Sequence record: KY000079.2
Source of the DNA: Acinetobacter phage AM24
Length of the DNA: 64,000 nt
Strand: one strand, 5' to 3'
Shown: positions 18,780 through 26,882 of the stretch, one piece after another
Numbering within the stretch: the first letter of the stretch is position 1
Layout of the letters: every line of letters starts with the position of its first letter
The notes under the pieces: generated by a model
Seen by the model: only the letters and a program-made list of their open reading frames with translations
Told to the model about the DNA's origin: nothing
The model's database searches: none
Position numbers and translations under genes: made by a program

Positions 18780-20024
18780 ATGGAACAACTTGTTTTAAAT
18801 ATTAATAAAGTCCCTGTTGTGGAAGCCTCTCAATTTAAATACTCAGACCATATTTTTGTTTCAGTTAATGGTCAATTTAAAAGAATGAAAAGAACTGATC
18901 TCCTTACCTTATTGAGTGCTGATGTTAAAGGTGAAAAAGGTGATAGAGGTCCGATTGGTTTACAAGGTAGGACTGGAGCTACAGGTGCAACTGGGGCCAC
19001 AGGAGCTACAGGTGCAACTGGAGATAAAGGTGTTAAGGGAGATCGTGGAGATGCTGGTTTCCGAGGATGGTCACCAGTCTTCAAATCTGTAGCTGACTCT
19101 GGATCTATCTACCTATACCTAAGTGATTGGGTTGGTGGTGAAAATACAAAACCTGATGTTCTAGGTTATATCTCACCTACAGGGATTGTAAACTATATCT
19201 CTGAGGGCGCAACTGCAATCAACACTGACTTTGCACCACAAATCAATGACCTTCAAACAAGTAAACTAGATGTTGGCTCTACAACTAGTGCTATCCCTGA
19301 AGGTTCAAACTTATATTATACAGATGCACGAGTTCGTGCTGCAACCCTTACAGGTCTCTCTACTGCGACCTCTACAGCTATTGCAGCGACTGATACTGTA
19401 TTAAGTGCATTTGGCAAGGCACAGGCTCAACTTAACCTTAAACAGAACAGTGCAAGCTTAGGAACAGATGTACAAGCTACAGTTCTATCTACTTACACTG
19501 TTGGTGGTAATACAGCAATTGCCAACACTGATACCATAGCAGCAGCTTTTGGTAAAGCTCAAGGGCAAATTAATGCTAGACAACTTTCAGCCAATCTTTC
19601 ATCTGATGTTCAGGCGTTAGTACTTTCAAGTTATGTTGTTGGTTCTAACACAGCTTTAGCCAATACAGATACTTTCATTGCTGCTCTTGGCAAGTTGCAA
19701 GGTCAGATCAATGCTAGAGAGGTAGCTGCCAATGTACCAGCAGATGTTAGGGCAACAGTTCTTACAGGTCTCTCTACAGCGACCTCTACAGCAATTACTG
19801 CTACAGATACTGTCTTGTCAGCCTTCGGGAAATTACAAGCCCAAGTCAACTTGAAACAAGACTCATCTACCCTAGCTGCAAATGTAAGATCAACAACCCT
19901 TACAGGTTTCTCTGCAACACCAAACTCAGCAGTAGTTGCAGCAGATACACTATTGGCAGCAATAGGAAAATTACAGGCTCAAGTTGATAGTTTATCTTCT
20001 AGAGTAACAGCACTAGGAGGATAA
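18780..20024 (+). CDS. Collagen-like tail fiber protein.
   Basis: Gly-X-Y triplets GEKGDRGPIGLQGRTGATGATGATGATGATGDKGVKGDRGDAGFRG, followed by five repeats of about 46 aa ending ...FGKaQaQvN.... Confidence 0.6.
   Translation: MEQLVLNINKVPVVEASQFKYSDHIFVSVNGQFKRMKRTDLLTLLSADVKGEKGDRGPIGLQGRTGATGATGATGATGATGDKGVKGDRGDAGFRGWSPVFKSVADSGSIYLYLSDWVGGENTKPDVLGYISPTGIVNYISEGATAINTDFAPQINDLQTSKLDVGSTTSAIPEGSNLYYTDARVRAATLTGLSTATSTAIAATDTVLSAFGKAQAQLNLKQNSASLGTDVQATVLSTYTVGGNTAIANTDTIAAAFGKAQGQINARQLSANLSSDVQALVLSSYVVGSNTALANTDTFIAALGKLQGQINAREVAANVPADVRATVLTGLSTATSTAITATDTVLSAFGKLQAQVNLKQDSSTLAANVRSTTLTGFSATPNSAVVAADTLLAAIGKLQAQVDSLSSRVTALGG
19330..20000 (+). repeat. Five tandem coding repeats of about 138 nt (about 46 aa) within the tail fiber gene.
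   Basis: Repeated peptide ATVLTGLSTATSTAI.ATDTVLSAFGK.QAQ.NLKQ.S..L...V. and diverged copies. Confidence 0.5.
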
Positions 20025-21645: not shown

Positions 21646-24417
21646 TTATTGACAGTTTTCACATTCTTCATATCTCTTAATATCACCAGATCCTCGCATA
21701 GAGTAAATGTAATAAAGAGCTAAAATACCATCATTTATTAAAGCATACTTATGAACCTTCATAATATACTCTGGGGTGTCATTGCTTGTAAAGTACAAGT
21801 TGATTGATTGTTGTTGGTCAATATATTGTTGACGCTGAGCACACAAATCAAGATGCTTTAGCATATCAATTTCAAAGGCAGTTCGGAAAACATCTTTCTC
21901 ATGTTGAGTCAGCCAGTGTACATGTTGTACAGAACCCTTATGTTTATTGATGTCGTTTACTACATCTTCATTATAAACACCACGCTCCTTCATGATCTCC
22001 AGAAGGACTTTATTCACCCTCCAGATATCACCTCCAGCACTTTGCTTCACAAACACCATAGCAACATCTAGGCCAATACCTTCGGAAGCCCCTGCCATAA
22101 TCTCTGCTGTTGACTTTGTAGGTGGCATCATCATGGTTGTTGCATTACGGATACCTAGGTGAGCACAACCTTCAGGCATTCCTAATTCACGTGCTAACCA
22201 CTTAGAAGCTGCTAAGGTTTGATCTCGCATACCCTTAAAGATTTCTTCATTAAGCCAGAAACTCTCAAGGCTCCCTACAACAATTCTACGTTTTTGTAGT
22301 AGTGTGTGGAAACCTAATACACCTGTACCAACTGCACGGAATCTCTTGGTGAAGGCTAAGATTTTTCTAAATGCCAAGGCATCCTCTTTATCTTGAACCA
22401 TTCTCTTTTCCATAAACTCAATGTAGTCACTCACATTACAGTCTTGCATAATATGTGCAATAAATGCTAAGTGAGGACATCTTGATTTCCACTCATCGTA
22501 TAAGTCAAGGTTTAAGTTTAGAATTACACAAGAGAATGTATGCTTCTCATCACTACCAAGTAACACTTCTTGGCAATTCATTGTATTCAAACCATTGAAC
22601 ATCAACATGTTACGTTTTGGCTCAAGTGCACAATATGTATCATCAAATCTTCCTTGGTCGATCACTTCATCAACACATACAAATCTTTCAGCAGAACGTT
22701 GAGGTTTTCTTTCACTCCATTTTAGGCGGTGTGTTTTTAAACCTAACTGACTCAACTTAAAGAGACCTGTACTCGATACAAGAAGACGATAAGCATCTTG
22801 GCATTCATACAGTCCTTTATCACCTGTACCATTATTGAGAGGTAATTCTTTTAGACCACCTACATCCCTCAAGACAACCTTTGAAGAAACACCAAGTGTT
22901 TGTAACATCAATTGCACATCTTGTAAGAATGTCTTGTGAATGCTTACCACTTGGATAGATTCATTTTCACCATTACGAGCAATAGTTCCATCTGAATCTA
23001 GGAGTCCAGCAAACCATTCCAATCGGCTTTCAATAGTGTACTCAGATGTTGGTACAAAGAATTTATCCTTAAGCCCTTCACTGTGAGTAAGCTTAATACG
23101 ATCACCACCTTGAAGTCCTGACACTGAAGAAACGCAAGTTATATTTTCAAGTAACTCCTTCTTCTTACCATACAAGTATGTGTGTTTTTTACCTTTGTAT
23201 TCAAAACCATCACCAGTGAAGAATCCATTAGTGTAAGCATGTTCGAGGGCCTTGTCACCTAAAATAACTGGTAGATCAAATTTAGATAGTCGATCACCAG
23301 ACTTCAACTCGTAGGCACGTTTAATGACCTCATTGCCATCCTCACCAACAACCTTAAAGCGGTGATACTCTGTGCAATCTAATTCATACCCTGAATCAGT
23401 TACCACTTTAACTAACTTCTGATTTTCACCAGTTTTGATAATTGTCACTTCAGACCATTCAAAACCATTCCACACCTCGATCTGCTGTCCCTCAAGGTCA
23501 GAAATCGTTTGATATCCACTTTTAGTTAAGATTAACGTCTCAGGTGAAACACATAAGTTTGATGCCTTAGCAGTCATACCTGCATCTTTAAATGCCTGAG
23601 CTAAGTGGCGGTTCATTTCATCAATCTTAGTGAAGTAACCCTTACCACGCTGCATCTTGATAGCAATAGCTTTAGCTAATAGAGCAACTGCTTCTGGGTC
23701 ATCCTTGACTAACTTCTCAATGTACTCGTCCTTACATAACCATGCTGGGTTATTACTTTCAGGTCGTTTGAATAGGTACTTTAAAACTTCCTCAAACTCA
23801 GGATGTTCAATACTAACAGCATAAGATAAACTACCTCTACGGCTACCTTGAACAACCTCATCCATACAATTAATCAAGTCACGAATGACAGGCATCACCC
23901 CACCACCATAACCACCCCTAGGTAGTTTCTTACCTTTATAGGCCCAGTCATCAACTGAGTAAGATGTACCATGCGAATGTTTAGTCAAGATACCTGCTTC
24001 AGTCACACAATCGTAACGAGAGAACAAGTTGTCACCAACATAACCACCAGCACAACTTACTGTTGATCCCCTTTCAGGTAAACCACTGTTCGCCAATAAA
24101 GGAGTTGAACAAGACACATAACCATCCCAAAGTACGTCAAAAAACACTTCCTCCCAAGTTTTACCAGCCGTATAAGTATCCACATTCCACCAAGAAGGGT
24201 ACTTATCTGGTGCATGTTTAGCTAAAGTCTTAGCAATCATTTTATAGCGAGCTTTTACAGTCTCACCATTCCAAGAATACTTTTCAAAGAACAACTGAGT
24301 CCCACCAGTAGTAAACCATTTAGGGATCTCTCCATGTTCTTGTAGTTTTTTTCGAAGTTGACTGTAACTATCAACCCCGTATAATTCTAATGTTTCTAAA
24401 AAAGACAAAACAGCCAC
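21646..24417 (-). CDS. nrdA: Ribonucleotide reductase class I large subunit (NrdA-like, no ATP cone), interrupted by a 326-aa LAGLIDADG intein.
   Basis: The extein motif ...KASNL/CQEV reconstitutes the active-site NxCxE (E. coli SNLCLEI). The total is 923 aa, which is a 597-aa extein plus the 326-aa intein. Confidence 0.85.
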   Translation of the reverse strand: MAVLSFLETLELYGVDSYSQLRKKLQEHGEIPKWFTTGGTQLFFEKYSWNGETVKARYKMIAKTLAKHAPDKYPSWWNVDTYTAGKTWEEVFFDVLWDGYVSCSTPLLANSGLPERGSTVSCAGGYVGDNLFSRYDCVTEAGILTKHSHGTSYSVDDWAYKGKKLPRGGYGGGVMPVIRDLINCMDEVVQGSRRGSLSYAVSIEHPEFEEVLKYLFKRPESNNPAWLCKDEYIEKLVKDDPEAVALLAKAIAIKMQRGKGYFTKIDEMNRHLAQAFKDAGMTAKASNLCVSPETLILTKSGYQTISDLEGQQIEVWNGFEWSEVTIIKTGENQKLVKVVTDSGYELDCTEYHRFKVVGEDGNEVIKRAYELKSGDRLSKFDLPVILGDKALEHAYTNGFFTGDGFEYKGKKHTYLYGKKKELLENITCVSSVSGLQGGDRIKLTHSEGLKDKFFVPTSEYTIESRLEWFAGLLDSDGTIARNGENESIQVVSIHKTFLQDVQLMLQTLGVSSKVVLRDVGGLKELPLNNGTGDKGLYECQDAYRLLVSSTGLFKLSQLGLKTHRLKWSERKPQRSAERFVCVDEVIDQGRFDDTYCALEPKRNMLMFNGLNTMNCQEVLLGSDEKHTFSCVILNLNLDLYDEWKSRCPHLAFIAHIMQDCNVSDYIEFMEKRMVQDKEDALAFRKILAFTKRFRAVGTGVLGFHTLLQKRRIVVGSLESFWLNEEIFKGMRDQTLAASKWLARELGMPEGCAHLGIRNATTMMMPPTKSTAEIMAGASEGIGLDVAMVFVKQSAGGDIWRVNKVLLEIMKERGVYNEDVVNDINKHKGSVQHVHWLTQHEKDVFRTAFEIDMLKHLDLCAQRQQYIDQQQSINLYFTSNDTPEYIMKVHKYALINDGILALYYIYSMRGSGDIKRYEECENCQ
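22576..23553 (-). mobile_element. Intein with a LAGLIDADG homing endonuclease domain, inserted at the catalytic Cys of NrdA.
   Basis: Block A CVSPETLILTKSG, block B TEYH, the LAGLIDADG motifs YTNGFFTGDGF and WFAGLLDSDGT, and a C-terminal ...FNGLNTMN followed by the +1 Cys. Confidence 0.75.
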
Positions 24418-24427
24418 AAATATCTCC

Positions 24428-25699
24428 TTACTTACTTCCTTGTAATCCTTTATTATCTTCTGAATCTTCCATGATCAGATTCAAGAGTTCTTCTTGTTCC
24501 TCTTGTTCTTTCTTCCTCATATTATTCCAAGCTTCTACAAACATAGCCTCAGACCAGTTACTTTCATACTCTCGGTTTTGACCCTTAGTGAAGAAATCTG
24601 GCATCTGGTAACCGTATGTATTTAAGTTAAACATCTTAGCCACTTTGGAATCCTTCTGAGTAACTTGGAACTCTTTAGGGATTTTATCTACAGGAACCTG
24701 CAAACGAGTCAAGAAAGTAAAGATTCGGAAGCGCACAAAATCAATGTACTCGGCTGTTGTATACCCATTGAGTGAACCTGAAGGGATTGCCATATCAATG
24801 ATTCGCTTCTCATGCTCTAACACGTAGTGGCAAGCTTGTAGTAACTTTCCAAACATTTCTTCATGCTCATGTAGAGGTTTTCCTACTTCATGGAAATAGG
24901 TGTTAAAATGTTCTGCTGCATAAATACCATGAAGGTCTTCATCTAGTGCACTTTGGTTAGCAATTTGTGCAATAACTTTAATTAAGTTAAAACCGTTTGT
25001 CTGGAAGCTTTTAAGGATGGCAAAGCTAGAGAACAACAAAGCTGTCTCTGTTAAAGAGAAGCACAAGCATGCAAGCATCTTGTTTTCATCTCGCATTAAC
25101 CCATCTAACCATTCCATACGTTCATTGAGCACAGGGTCATCAATGTAGGATGTGTAGTAATCATCGGTATCTAGGCCAAGTACAATGTTAATTTCATTGT
25201 ATGTTCGTGCATGGACCATCAACTCAATCATTGCTAAAGCAGAAGCACCAGCACGGGATTCATGTCGAGGGAATACTTTAATGAATAATCCATTCCAGAA
25301 TTCATCACCAACAATTAGTTCATACTGTAAGAATAAGTGTAGAACTGTTTTTACTGCATGTAGTTGCTCTTTAGTAAGCACATACTCAAGTTCCATCTGG
25401 TCATTCTTGACTTCCATTTCACTCTTGAACCACATCTGCTCTTCAAGCTGCTGGTCAGCAATCTCAAGAATCTTTGGGTACTTAATTTCATAGCCACTAT
25501 TGGGTGATGTAATACGGGTTTGCACTAACCCAGTTTTCTCTGAATTTAGTGTTTTGTTTATTGTCACATAAACGAATTTCCCTTCAGGGTTTTTCTCATC
25601 CTTGACATTGATAATAACCTTTCCAGTTGGTGGTGGTAAAAATCCAATCTTCTCAACCTGGCCTTCGGTTAAATCTACCTCAATATTGATTTTAGACAT
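24428..25699 (-). CDS. nrdB: Ribonucleotide reductase class I small subunit (NrdB-like) with an N-terminal extension.
   Basis: Ferritin-like di-iron/tyrosyl radical region (ELIVGDEFW..., ...ACLCFSLTETALLFSSFAIL..., ...YAAEHFNTYFHEV...). It lies immediately downstream of nrdA on the same strand. Confidence 0.75.
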   Translation of the reverse strand: MSKINIEVDLTEGQVEKIGFLPPPTGKVIINVKDEKNPEGKFVYVTINKTLNSEKTGLVQTRITSPNSGYEIKYPKILEIADQQLEEQMWFKSEMEVKNDQMELEYVLTKEQLHAVKTVLHLFLQYELIVGDEFWNGLFIKVFPRHESRAGASALAMIELMVHARTYNEINIVLGLDTDDYYTSYIDDPVLNERMEWLDGLMRDENKMLACLCFSLTETALLFSSFAILKSFQTNGFNLIKVIAQIANQSALDEDLHGIYAAEHFNTYFHEVGKPLHEHEEMFGKLLQACHYVLEHEKRIIDMAIPSGSLNGYTTAEYIDFVRFRIFTFLTRLQVPVDKIPKEFQVTQKDSKVAKMFNLNTYGYQMPDFFTKGQNREYESNWSEAMFVEAWNNMRKKEQEEQEELLNLIMEDSEDNKGLQGSK

Positions 25700-26255: not shown

Positions 26256-26882
26256 ATAGTCTCCTTATGAATTGTTTACATAATATGTAGGGATGTTATC
26301 TGGCACCACTACAAGTTGAAGGTATTGTAGTATGAATTAAATTTATAAAACACCCCACACCTTTAGAAATTCTTAAAAGTTTACCTTGTTTGGTTGTTTG
26401 TTAAACACAACACAAAATAAAGGTAGAACCTAGAGGTTATCTTTAAATTTGTCCCTAGGGGAAAATCCTTCAGGGAATAAAAAAGGACACCACTTAAAGT
26501 AGTGCCCTAAAAAGTACCCTAGGAAATATTACTATAATAACCCTGAGTCAAATTTTTTAAGTATCCCTTATATTTATAATACCCCAAAAAGTAATTTTGT
26601 CAAGCTAAAACCATGCCAACTAATCATTGGAAATTTCGATTAAAAATTAAATATTAGTAAATTCTGTAAAAATACATCAGACCGATTTGATCAAATGCAT
26701 TTTTTAAAAGTGAAAATAACCAGTTCAAAATGGTTTTAACCAGACCGATTTGATCAAATGTTCTAATAAGGTAATAAATAGGGTTTTAAATATGTTTCTT
26801 TTTTAAGTTGACAGAGAAAAAATTTTTTTATAAAGTTATCCACATCCAAAGATGGTTGATTGGTATAAGTAAGGAGAATTTC
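26256..26882. promoter_or_regulatory. AT-rich divergent intergenic control region. Candidate replication origin or early promoter cluster.
   Basis: 627 bp without a convincing ORF between divergently transcribed modules. It has exact 20-bp direct repeats cagaccgatttgatcaaatg at 26678-26697 and 26741-26760, each containing the palindrome tttgatcaaa with a GATC. It also has a palindrome ccctaggg near 26452 and a small inverted repeat aacca..tggtt near 26720. Confidence 0.45.
26808..26836 (+). promoter_or_regulatory. Sigma70-type promoter.
   Basis: -35 ttgaca (26808-13), 17-bp spacer, -10 taaagt (26831-36). The upstream context is ttttaagttgaca. Confidence 0.4.

What the first reader, a model, noticed from the sequence alone, without database searches (positions are those of the whole stretch)
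22576..23553. LAGLIDADG intein at the catalytic cysteine of NrdA
The 923-aa nrdA reading frame carries CVSPETLILTKSG ... two LAGLIDADG motifs (NGFFTGDGF, WFAGLLDSDGT) ... FNGLNTMN inserted between SNL and CQEV. Excising 326 aa restores the N-x-C-x-E active-site motif. The +1 residue is the catalytic Cys itself, a classic RNR intein insertion site. The penultimate residue is Met, not the usual His.
Basis: partly seen in the sequence, partly recalled or inferred. Interest (0 to 1): 0.55.

Follow-up and report, generated by a model that had tools for sequence, protein, structure and literature searches.

The report
Homing intein in phage NrdA
The large ribonucleotide reductase gene of this Acinetobacter phage carries a genuine self-splicing protein insert (an intein with its own DNA-cutting enzyme) directly in front of the enzyme's catalytic cysteine; it belongs to a known family of phage inteins at a known site, so it is a clean but ordinary example.

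Summary
nrdA (window 21646-24417, minus strand, 923 aa) holds a 326-aa in-frame insert at 22576-23553. It begins with Cys and ends with Asn, and the next residue is Cys.

- **It is an insert.** The sister phage Mithridates has a 597-aa NrdA that equals the window protein minus the insert.
- **The site is the catalytic cysteine.** The +1 Cys aligns with E. coli NrdA C439.
- **It is an intein.** The N-terminal intein and LAGLIDADG models pass their curated cut-offs. A confident structure model matches PI-SceI, PI-PfuI and the TliVMA intein.
- **The family and site are known.** All 12 relatives checked, out of 339 phage records with a homologue, sit at the same site. They include ICP1, T5-like, phiCbK-like and SPbeta-like phages. 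Several are already annotated as inteins.
- **The family lacks a penultimate His.** None of the relatives read here has one. Most end Gly-Gln or Gly-Asn. Met-Asn was seen only in this Acinetobacter-phage group.
- **The intein spread recently.** Its synonymous divergence is 0.01-0.02, against 0.07-0.58 in the exteins. Short co-conversion tracts flank it.
- **NrdA still works.** Extein dN/dS is 0.02-0.07 in nearly all pairs of intein-bearing alleles, which implies splicing.

This is a new member of a known kind, of low interest.

The parts
21646..24417 (-). nrdA precursor ORF: 923 aa, 104.7 kDa, class Id-like RNR alpha subunit interrupted by the intein
   Evidence: ORF list. Pfam Ribonuc_red_lgC/lgN and NCBIfam NrdE-prime hits. 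Best solved relatives 6dqw/6dqx. Mass.
23554..24417 (-). N-extein, precursor aa 1-288, ending ...KASNL. Contains the C225 equivalent.
   Evidence: Colinear with Mithridates NrdA.
22576..23553 (-). Intein, 326 aa, 36.7 kDa: a Hint splicing domain split by a LAGLIDADG homing endonuclease domain
   Evidence: AlphaFold model with pLDDT 91.1. Foldseek hits to the TliVMA intein, PI-SceI and PI-PfuI. Absent from Mithridates.
21646..22575 (-). C-extein, precursor aa 615-923 plus stop. It starts with the catalytic Cys (CQEV...) and contains E441, C462 and Y730/Y731 equivalents and a C-terminal CxxC.
23515..23553 (-). Splicing block A (CVSPETLILTKSG). Cys1 is the N-terminal nucleophile.
   Evidence: TIGR01445 alignment starts at this residue. 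Cys1 is conserved in all 13 full family members aligned.
23350..23382 (-). Splicing block B (LDCTEYHRFKV): Thr61 (B:7), His64 (B:10), Phe66 (B:12)
22678..23256 (-). Homing endonuclease domain, approximately intein residues 100-292. The limits come from the gap in the alignment to the 139-aa mini-intein of Burkholderia phage SURPRISE13.
   Evidence: Pfam LAGLIDADG_3 and Hom_end. I-DmoI structural matches.
23203..23238 (-). LAGLIDADG motif 1 (AYTNGFFTGDGF). The catalytic Asp115 is retained.
   Evidence: Aligned to the first LAGLIDADG motif of PI-PfuI.
22984..23022 (-). LAGLIDADG motif 2 (LEWFAGLLDSDGT). The catalytic Asp188 is retained.
   Evidence: Aligned to the second LAGLIDADG motif of PI-PfuI.
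22597..22644 (-). Splicing block F (DDTYCALEPKRNMLMF). Cys308 occupies position F:4, where most inteins have Asp.
22576..22596 (-). Splicing block G (NGLNTMN): Thr324 (G:5), Met325 (G:6, normally His), Asn326 (G:7, the cyclising residue)
22573..22575 (-). Codon of the +1 Cys. It is both the C-extein splicing nucleophile and the thiyl-radical Cys of the reductase (E. coli C439).
23554..23574 (-). Upstream flank of the homing site, extein codons 282-288 (T A K A S N L). All seven codons differ silently from the intein-free allele, which marks a co-conversion tract shared only with Bestia.
   Evidence: Chance estimate about 5e-10.
22570..22575 (-). Downstream flank, codons 615-616 (TGC CAA). It is identical in all intein-bearing alleles and silently different (TGT CAG) in the intein-free allele.
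24428..25699 (-). nrdB (423 aa), the partner beta subunit immediately upstream in the same operon. It is uninterrupted in this window.
   Evidence: Best solved relatives 8dq4/6cwo.

Best explanation
This is a class 1 intein with a nested LAGLIDADG homing endonuclease, in the nrdA gene of an Acinetobacter baumannii phage.

**Splicing (inferred).** The gene is translated as a 105-kDa precursor that cannot be active, because the insert splits the N-x-C-x-E finger loop. The expected steps are:

1. Cys1 performs an N-S acyl shift.
2. The +1 Cys, which is the future thiyl-radical Cys, takes over the N-extein by transesterification.
3. Asn326 cyclises and releases the 37-kDa intein.
4. An S-N shift yields the 68-kDa NrdA with a native SNLCQE active site.

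**The C-terminal step.** It proceeds without a penultimate His, as in the rest of this family. The family also has Cys at F:4 and Thr at G:5.

**Homing (inferred).** The endonuclease domain cuts intein-free nrdA alleles during co-infection. Repair from the intein-bearing copy then copies in the intein together with a few to about 20 bp of flanking extein.

**Shown here:** the anatomy, the insertion site, the fold, the natural empty allele, and the population signature of recent spread. **Inferred:** the splicing chemistry and the present-day endonuclease activity.
For: - **Exact in-frame insert absent from an orthologue.** Mithridates NrdA is 597 aa and equals the extein.
- **Intein and endonuclease models pass their cut-offs.** The N-terminal intein model starts at residue 289.
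- **Splicing residues are present.** Cys1, Thr61-x-x-His64, the blocks F and G, Asn326 and Cys+1.
- **The fold fits.** The model has pLDDT 91.1 and pTM 0.90. Its best structural matches are endonuclease-containing inteins: 7qsu at 6e-15, then 1ef0, 1dq3, 1vde and 2cw7. Mini-inteins and I-DmoI match the two domains separately.
- **The insertion site is the catalytic Cys.** Cys+1 aligns with E. coli C439, and all other catalytic residues are kept.
- **The site is shared.** 12 of 12 relatives examined sit at the same place, and three groups are annotated as inteins.
- **Both LAGLIDADG catalytic Asp residues are intact**.
- **The intein is much younger than its exteins.** Its dS is 0.009-0.024, against 0.07-0.58 in the exteins of the same genes.
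- **Presence is polymorphic, with co-conversion haplotypes** at -19..-1 and at +3 and +6.
- **The host gene is under purifying selection.** Extein dN/dS is 0.02-0.07 in nearly all pairs of intein-bearing alleles, with one C-extein pair at 0.16. NrdA is therefore still functional and splicing must occur.
- **Literature support.** About 5% of functional inteins lack the penultimate His, and the Chilo iridescent virus RNR intein splices with its native C-terminal Gln (PMC4031507). Phage class 1 inteins often lack this His (PMC5050341).
Against: - No experiment shows splicing or cleavage for this intein.
- The NCBIfam C-terminal intein model did not match, and Pfam Intein_splicing stays below its cut-off (27.1 bits against 35.8). 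The C-terminal half is therefore atypical.
- The penultimate residue is Met. The block F position that is His in many relatives is Asn here, so no obvious general base for Asn cyclisation is visible.
- Intein dN/dS is 0.2-0.8, on very few substitutions. This would also fit an endonuclease drifting towards inactivity.
- Only one intein-free allele is available. The downstream 2-nt difference could therefore be private to that phage rather than a co-conversion mark.
Confidence: 0.9

Rival explanations
1. The intein still splices, but its endonuclease is no longer active. The element would now be inherited vertically or moved only by general recombination between co-infecting phages, not by homing.
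For: Intein dN/dS is 0.2-0.8, far above the exteins. Ten of the 18 variable intein sites are non-synonymous. Homing cycles predict endonuclease decay after fixation, and six of the seven known relatives already carry the intein.
Against: Both catalytic Asp residues and both motifs are intact. Intein dS is 5-50 times lower than extein dS in the same genes. The tracts flanking the intein are very short: 19 nt or less upstream and 6 nt downstream. These features fit break-initiated gene conversion better than ordinary recombination. An empty site still exists in the population.
Confidence: 0.25
2. The intein uses a class 3-like or hybrid mechanism. Cys308 at block F position 4 would attack the N-terminal junction, or would form a regulatory disulfide with Cys1 or Cys+1, instead of acting as a passive substitute for the usual Asp.
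For: Cys at F:4 and Thr at G:5 are two of the three residues of the class 3 Trp-Cys-Thr signature. They are conserved in almost all family members. Two relatives, SURPRISE13 and P0031, also have Trp at B:12, which gives the complete triplet. The definition of the triplet and the existence of triplet-bearing inteins that begin with Ser or Cys are in PMC2807308 and PMC5222942.
Against: The window intein has Cys1, Thr B:7 and His B:10, which are the class 1 set. It has Phe, not Trp, at B:12, and Cys rather than Ser/Thr at +1. The SPbeta-like member has the ordinary Asp at F:4, so Cys is replaceable in this family.
Confidence: 0.07
3. The insert is not removed. It would be a decayed intein or a domesticated domain, leaving nrdA a pseudogene or a protein with a new function.
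For: The block G is atypical, and no C-terminal intein model matched.
Against: All splice-junction nucleophiles are intact. The insert splits the catalytic finger loop at C439, so an unspliced protein cannot be a reductase. Yet the exteins of intein-bearing alleles show dN/dS of 0.02-0.07 in nearly all pairs and keep every catalytic residue. nrdB next to it is intact.
Confidence: 0.02
4. The interruption is an intron with a homing endonuclease gene that is removed at the RNA level.
For: RNR genes of phages often carry group I introns. The nrdB of the sister phage Herod has one.
Against: No Rfam family, group I or group II introns included, reaches its threshold anywhere in the window. The insert is one continuous frame with the exteins, with no stop codon. 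It has Hint blocks and a Hint fold at both ends.
Confidence: 0.01

Closest known systems
The same intein in Acinetobacter phages Bestia, YMC13/03/R2096, P577, Herod and Ab15 (GenBank MW316733, KM672662/NC_027332, OR180307, MW316732, PP763259)
   Same: 98.2-98.8% amino-acid identity over all 326 residues. Same host gene, same site, same ...NTMN|C end. The KM672662 annotation note already lists the intein N-terminal and LAGLIDADG domain hits.
   Different: The window differs at 8-10 of 978 nt in the intein and about 9-10% in the C-extein. None of those records names the feature an intein. I found no paper in the searchable library that describes it.
NrdA inteins of Vibrio phages ICP1, PG07 and eugene, Rheinheimera Barba phages, Staphylococcus Silviavirus, and Pectobacterium Certrevirus. 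ICP1 records annotate an 'intein-containing ... precursor'. The Certrevirus NrdA intein with a LAGLIDADG endonuclease is noted in PMC7344957.
   Same: 47-55% identical over the full length. Same insertion point SNL|C-x-E, same architecture, Cys at F:4 and Thr at G:5.
   Different: They end in Gly-Gln, where the window intein ends in Met-Asn. Most of their hosts are long class Ia-type NrdA proteins of 730-750 aa after splicing. The window has a 597-aa class Id-like enzyme.
The RIR1 allelic intein group of InBase: Bacillus subtilis SPbeta prophage bnrdE intein and Chilo iridescent virus RIR1 intein (PMC1635734; CIV splicing with C-terminal Gln summarised in PMC4031507)
   Same: The SPbeta-like phage phi3Ts carries its intein at the identical position before the catalytic Cys. 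It is detectably homologous (25% identity over 100% of the query, E 4e-14). It also lacks the penultimate His, ending Gly-Asn.
   Different: The SPbeta-type intein is 385 aa, has Asp at F:4 and sits in a class Ib NrdE. I did not have the CIV sequence, so its relation rests on the literature statement that it is allelic with the SPbeta intein.
Structurally characterised endonuclease-containing inteins: PI-SceI (1vde, 1ef0), PI-PfuI (1dq3, itself an RNR intein) and the TliVMA intein (7qsu)
   Same: The same two-domain arrangement, a Hint domain with a nested double-motif LAGLIDADG endonuclease. Foldseek E-values 6e-15 to 1e-11, TM-scores 0.56-0.63.
   Different: Only 12-16% sequence identity. 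Their host sites are different. The window intein is smaller, at 326 aa against about 360-454 aa.

Membership tests
Intein (class 1 protein-splicing element) | In-frame insertion in a conserved host protein that is absent from orthologues | tested here: met
   Mithridates NrdA is 597 aa and matches the extein colinearly, with 11 aa differences and none at the junction. The extein also aligns without a gap to 6dqw and to E. coli NrdA.
Intein (class 1 protein-splicing element) | N-terminal Cys/Ser/Thr nucleophile (block A) and the block B Thr-x-x-His | tested here: met
   Cys1, Thr61 and His64 are present. TIGR01445 scores 36.9 bits against a cut-off of 24.5, starting at the first intein residue.
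Intein (class 1 protein-splicing element) | [quoted passage not shown] | tested here: met
   Asn326 is followed by Cys+1.
Intein (class 1 protein-splicing element) | Penultimate His (G:6). This is typical but not obligatory: about 5% of functional inteins lack it (PMC4031507). | tested here: not met
   Met325 occupies this position. None of the relatives whose C-terminus was read has His there: they carry Gly, with single cases of Ser and Ala.
Intein (class 1 protein-splicing element) | Hint fold | tested here: met
   The model has pLDDT 91.1. It matches PI-SceI, PI-PfuI, the TliVMA intein and the Ssp/Npu DnaB mini-inteins.
Intein (class 1 protein-splicing element) | Autocatalytic excision with ligation of the exteins | not testable with these tools
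   Indirect evidence only. Extein dN/dS is 0.02-0.07 in nearly all pairs of intein-bearing alleles, and all catalytic residues are kept.
LAGLIDADG homing endonuclease (single-chain, two motifs) | Two LAGLIDADG motifs, each ending in a catalytic acidic residue | tested here: met
   Asp115 and Asp188 are present. Pfam LAGLIDADG_3 scores 44.6 bits against a cut-off of 22.5. The motifs align to those of PI-PfuI.
LAGLIDADG homing endonuclease (single-chain, two motifs) | Site-specific cleavage of the empty allele and gene conversion (homing) | not testable with these tools
   Indirect evidence. Intein dS is 0.009-0.024 against extein dS of 0.07-0.58. Presence is polymorphic, and silent-site tracts adjoin the insertion point.
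RIR1 allelic intein group at the catalytic Cys (SPbeta / iridovirus type) | The same insertion point in the RNR large subunit as the SPbeta-type prophage intein | tested here: met
   phi3Ts reads FSNL|C...GN|CSEV and the window reads ASNL|C...MN|CQEV. Both lie at the E. coli C439 column.
RIR1 allelic intein group at the catalytic Cys (SPbeta / iridovirus type) | Sequence homology of the intein itself to group members | tested here: met
   tblastn to SPbeta-like phages gives E 4e-14 to 1e-13 over 100% of the query. Identity rises to 47-55% with the Vibrio, Rheinheimera and Staphylococcus phage members. The CIV member was not compared.
Class 3 inteins | No N-terminal nucleophile; Trp B:12, Cys F:4, Thr G:5 triplet; Ser/Thr at +1 (PMC2807308, PMC5222942) | tested here: not met
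   Cys1 is present, B:12 is Phe66 and +1 is Cys. Only Cys308 (F:4) and Thr324 (G:5) fit the signature.
Class Id ribonucleotide reductase (host protein) | A short alpha subunit without an ATP-cone, closest to the F. johnsoniae / A. ureae alpha, with a matching beta subunit | tested here: met
   The extein is 597 aa and its best PDB hits are 6dqw/6dqx at E 6e-70. No ATP-cone domain appears among the Pfam hits. NrdB is closest to 8dq4/6cwo. The metal cofactor cannot be tested here.
Group I / group II intron | A match to an intron RNA model at the interruption | tested here: not met
   No Rfam hit at gathering threshold anywhere in the window. The same search found the group I intron in Herod nrdB.

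The most novel reading that the evidence does not exclude
In this RNR intein family the usual penultimate His is missing, Cys sits at F:4 and Thr at G:5, and both Cys1 and Cys+1 are present. Three cysteines would therefore meet at the splicing centre. The least ordinary reading not excluded is that Cys308 takes part in catalysis as a class 1/class 3 hybrid, or forms a reversible disulfide with Cys1 or Cys+1. Maturation of the reductase would then be gated by redox state. The Met-Asn end of the Acinetobacter-phage lineage would be a further retuning of the C-terminal step.
Probability: 0.08. Interest if true: 0.5.

Novelty: new member of a known kind. Interest (0 to 1): 0.2.

Why it matters
For annotation, the product of this gene should be described as an intein-containing precursor. 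The mature NrdA is 597 aa (68 kDa), not 923 aa. The six public orthologues lack that annotation.

Biologically this is a textbook case, not a discovery. Even so, the phage group offers a compact natural system:

- It has an empty allele (Mithridates).
- It has two co-conversion haplotypes among filled alleles.
- The intein's synonymous divergence is 5-50 times lower than that of its host gene.

This material suits measurement of homing and co-conversion tract length in a therapeutic-phage lineage of A. baumannii. The Met at the penultimate position, in a family that otherwise has Gly, Ser or Ala there and often Gln at the end, adds one data point to how inteins manage Asn cyclisation without the usual His.

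Tried and rejected
- **Primary papers.** I tried to read the SPbeta papers (PMC19153, PMC55833) and the class 3 extension paper (PMC3133030) for the exact site name and splicing data. None is held. The link to the InBase RIR1 allelic group therefore rests on PMC1635734 plus my own alignment to an SPbeta-like phage.
- **C-terminal models.** NCBIfam and Pfam gave no C-terminal intein hit. Pfam Intein_splicing matched only the N-terminal half, below its cut-off. I read this as the family's atypical block G, not as evidence against an intein.
- **Sequence search of solved structures.** It gave only a weak PI-PfuI hit (E 1.6e-4). The fold comparison settled the point.
- **Word-indexed protein search.** It returned only 33 hits, mostly fragments. 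The tblastn search of phage genomes was far more informative.
- **Preferred flank codons.** I looked for a shared codon pattern around the insertion site across distant relatives, as a footprint of the endonuclease target. None was evident.
- **Intron hypothesis.** Rejected.
- **Other inteins in the window.** I checked ten further ORFs of the window (eight of the large ones and the two just downstream of nrdB), including the primase-helicase and the polymerase. None has an intein.
- **Active-site distances.** I could not measure the Cys1, Cys308 and Cys+1 distances, because the model coordinates are not exposed.
Full report
**Observation.** The minus-strand ORF 21646-24417 encodes 923 aa. The stretch CVSPETL...GLNTMN is precursor residues 289-614. 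It is 326 aa and maps to window 22576-23553, exactly the coordinates given. Deleting it joins ...KASNL to CQEV... and recreates the N-x-C-x-E motif. Both LAGLIDADG motifs, the Met-Asn end and the following Cys are as described.

**Is it an insert?** Megablast against public phage genomes finds seven records, all Acinetobacter baumannii phages, at 94-96% identity. Six match over the full 2772 nt. The seventh, Mithridates, matches in two pieces that cover 65% of the query. Its annotated nrdA is 1794 nt. Its 597-aa product has the same length as the window protein without the insert. It differs at only 11 residues and reads QAFKDAGMTAKASNL|CQEVLLGS across the junction.

The spliced sequence aligns without a gap through asnlC.E to the class Id alpha subunits 6dqw and 6dqx (E 6e-70). 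I fetched E. coli nrdA and aligned it. The +1 Cys falls on C439, and N437, E441, C225, C462, Y730 and Y731 are all conserved.

**Is it an intein?**
- NCBIfam's N-terminal intein model scores 36.9 bits (cut-off 24.5) and begins at the first residue of the insert.
- Pfam LAGLIDADG_3 scores 44.6 bits (cut-off 22.5).
- Pfam Intein_splicing matches only the N-terminal half and stays below its cut-off. No C-terminal intein model matches.
- The family alignment shows Cys1, block B Thr61-x-x-His64, block F and block G.
- An AlphaFold model of the insert with five extein residues on each side has mean pLDDT 91.1 and pTM 0.90.
- Its best matches among solved structures are endonuclease-containing inteins: the TliVMA intein 7qsu (6e-15), PI-SceI, PI-PfuI and PI-TkoII. 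Mini-inteins and I-DmoI match the two domains separately.
- Alignment to PI-PfuI puts Asp115 and Asp188 at the motif ends, the positions of the catalytic acids.
- Rfam finds no intron or other RNA family in the window. The same search did find a group I intron in a sister phage's nrdB.

**Family and site.** A translated search with the intein finds 339 phage records. I fetched 12 representatives: Vibrio PG07, eugene and ICP1, Rheinheimera Barba8A, Staphylococcus RP15, Escherichia SelmaRatti, Corynebacterium C3PO, Bacteroides DAC16, Caulobacter Karma, Bacillus phi3Ts (SPbeta-like), Burkholderia SURPRISE13 and Pectobacterium DU_PP_IV. In all 12 the intein sits between (S/T)N(L/P) and C-x-E, at the E. 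coli C439 column. ICP1, SelmaRatti and Karma records already annotate it as an intein.

The literature describes an allelic RIR1 intein group shared by B. subtilis prophages, iridoviruses and a cyanobacterium (PMC1635734). It also describes phage RNR inteins in SPbeta, in P1201 (host gene shown to be functional) and in Certrevirus (PMC3653736, PMC7344957). The site is therefore a known, widely used one. This holds even though inteins are said to be rarely placed at catalytic residues (PMC4760082).

**The penultimate residue.** None of the relatives whose C-terminus I could read has His at G:6. This covers the 12 phage representatives and about 14 metagenomic proteins. The common endings are Thr-Gly-Gln|Cys and Thr-Gly-Asn|Cys, with single cases of Ser-Gln and Ala-Asn. 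Met-Asn occurs only in the Acinetobacter-phage group, where all six intein-bearing alleles have it.

According to reviews, about 5% of functional inteins lack this His. The Chilo iridescent virus RNR intein splices better with its native C-terminal Gln than with Asn (PMC4031507). Phage class 1 inteins frequently have other residues at this position, and restoring His can even slow splicing (PMC5050341). Only the Met is specific to this group.

The family also has Cys at F:4 (Asp only in the SPbeta-like member) and Thr at G:5. These are two thirds of the class 3 signature (PMC2807308, PMC5222942). With Cys1, Thr B:7, His B:10, Phe at B:12 and Cys at +1, the window intein fits class 1.

**Evidence for function and mobility.**
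- Among the five distinct intein-bearing alleles, Nei-Gojobori dS is 0.009-0.024 in the intein. It is 0.07-0.23 in the N-extein and 0.07-0.58 in the C-extein.
- Extein dN/dS is 0.02-0.07 in nearly all pairs, with one C-extein pair (Herod/Ab15) at 0.16. The host gene has stayed under strong purifying selection while carrying the insert. Because the insert splits the active-site loop, this implies efficient splicing.
- The much lower synonymous divergence of the intein implies that it entered these lineages well after the exteins diverged. That is the expected result of homing.
- Intein dN/dS is 0.2-0.8 on few substitutions, which is consistent with relaxed constraint on a selfish element.
- The seven extein codons just upstream (T A K A S N L) all differ at the third position between the window and Mithridates. 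The background is about 0.05 differing codons per codon, so the chance of this is about 5e-10.
- That upstream haplotype is shared only with Bestia. YMC13/03/R2096, P577, Herod and Ab15 carry the intein with the Mithridates-type upstream flank.
- Downstream, all intein-bearing alleles have TGC CAA and the empty allele has TGT CAG.
- These are short co-conversion tracts of different lengths, as expected from independent repair events at a double-strand break. With only one empty allele, the downstream pair is suggestive and not conclusive.

**Mechanism.** Translation gives a 104.7-kDa inactive precursor. Class 1 splicing then proceeds: a Cys1 N-S shift, transesterification to Cys+1, Asn326 cyclisation and an S-N shift. 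The products are a 68.0-kDa NrdA and a 36.7-kDa intein-endonuclease (masses). The chemistry is inferred from the residues and from the family. It is not shown here.

The nucleophile Cys+1 is the residue that later carries the thiyl radical, so the enzyme cannot work before splicing. In mixed infections the free intein would cut empty nrdA alleles and be copied in.

**Context.** The host enzyme is a class Id-like RNR, not an E. coli/T4-type class Ia enzyme. The alpha subunit is closest to 6dqw/6dqx, it has no ATP-cone hit, and the beta subunit is closest to 8dq4/6cwo.

**Novelty.** The intein is 98% identical in protein to copies in six public phage genomes. One of them lists the intein and LAGLIDADG domain hits in its note field, but none names the feature an intein. 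No paper in the searchable library describes an NrdA intein in Acinetobacter phages. A related phage's terminase intein has been described (PMC8228797).

This is a new member of a well-known kind at a known site. Interest is low. The useful by-products are the natural empty allele, the co-conversion haplotypes and the Met-Asn ending.

Noticed in passing
L020 785-1094 (Acinetobacter phage Herod nrdB); compare window 24428-25699: In Herod, nrdB is annotated as two CDS fragments separated by a group I intron (Rfam RF00028, 82.4 bits). YMC13/03/R2096, P577 and Ab15 also show truncated nrdB CDSs of 429-510 nt. In KM672662 the fragment is labelled 'alpha chain'. The window, Bestia and Mithridates have an intact 1272-nt nrdB. 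The RNR operon of this phage group therefore carries an intein and an intron in different combinations.
   Followed up: partly
window 26256-26807; compare L002 8006-8614 and L020 2747-3355: Bestia and Herod have a free-standing HNH homing endonuclease gene (609 nt) a short distance beyond the 158-aa ORF next to nrdB. The window has only a 552-nt AT-rich gap there (GC about 0.27-0.33), with no ORF of 60 aa or more. Mithridates also lacks this gene. It is a third mobile element that is polymorphic around the same operon.
   Followed up: partly
window 21646-22575 versus 23554-24417: The window's C-extein is about 9-10% divergent in DNA (dS about 0.53) from all six relatives, which differ from one another by only 2-6% there. 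Its N-extein is within 1.5-5% of them. The gene is mosaic, with a change of ancestry at or near the intein.
   Followed up: partly
L017 (Burkholderia phage SURPRISE13 nrdA, intein at protein residues 440-578) and protein P0031: A 139-aa mini-intein occupies the same site, with no endonuclease domain. It has Trp at B:12, Cys at F:4 and Thr at G:5, the complete class 3 triplet. It also has Cys1, Cys+1 and a Gly-Gln end. This combination would be worth testing for its splicing mechanism.
   Followed up: partly
protein P0020 (metagenomic relative, 370 aa): This family member lacks Cys1 (the junction reads TTNVF|IAGDT) and has Gln in place of the block B His. Its block F/G region is not recognisable. 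It may be a decayed, non-splicing copy.
   Followed up: no
window 24428-25699 (nrdB): The Pfam small-subunit domain covers only residues 70-335 of 423. There is an N-terminal extension of about 70 aa and a charged, Glu-rich C-terminal tail (...KKEQEEQEELLNLIMEDSEDNKGLQGSK). Neither was explained.
   Followed up: no
window 18780-20024: The ORF homologous to the 'putative tail fiber protein' of Bestia and Mithridates contains a collagen-like Gly-X-Y run (GEKGDRGPIGLQGRTGATGATGATGATGATGDKGVKGDRGDAG). It is followed by several copies of a repeat of about 40 aa ending ...AFGKAQ(A/G)Q(I/L)N.
   Followed up: no
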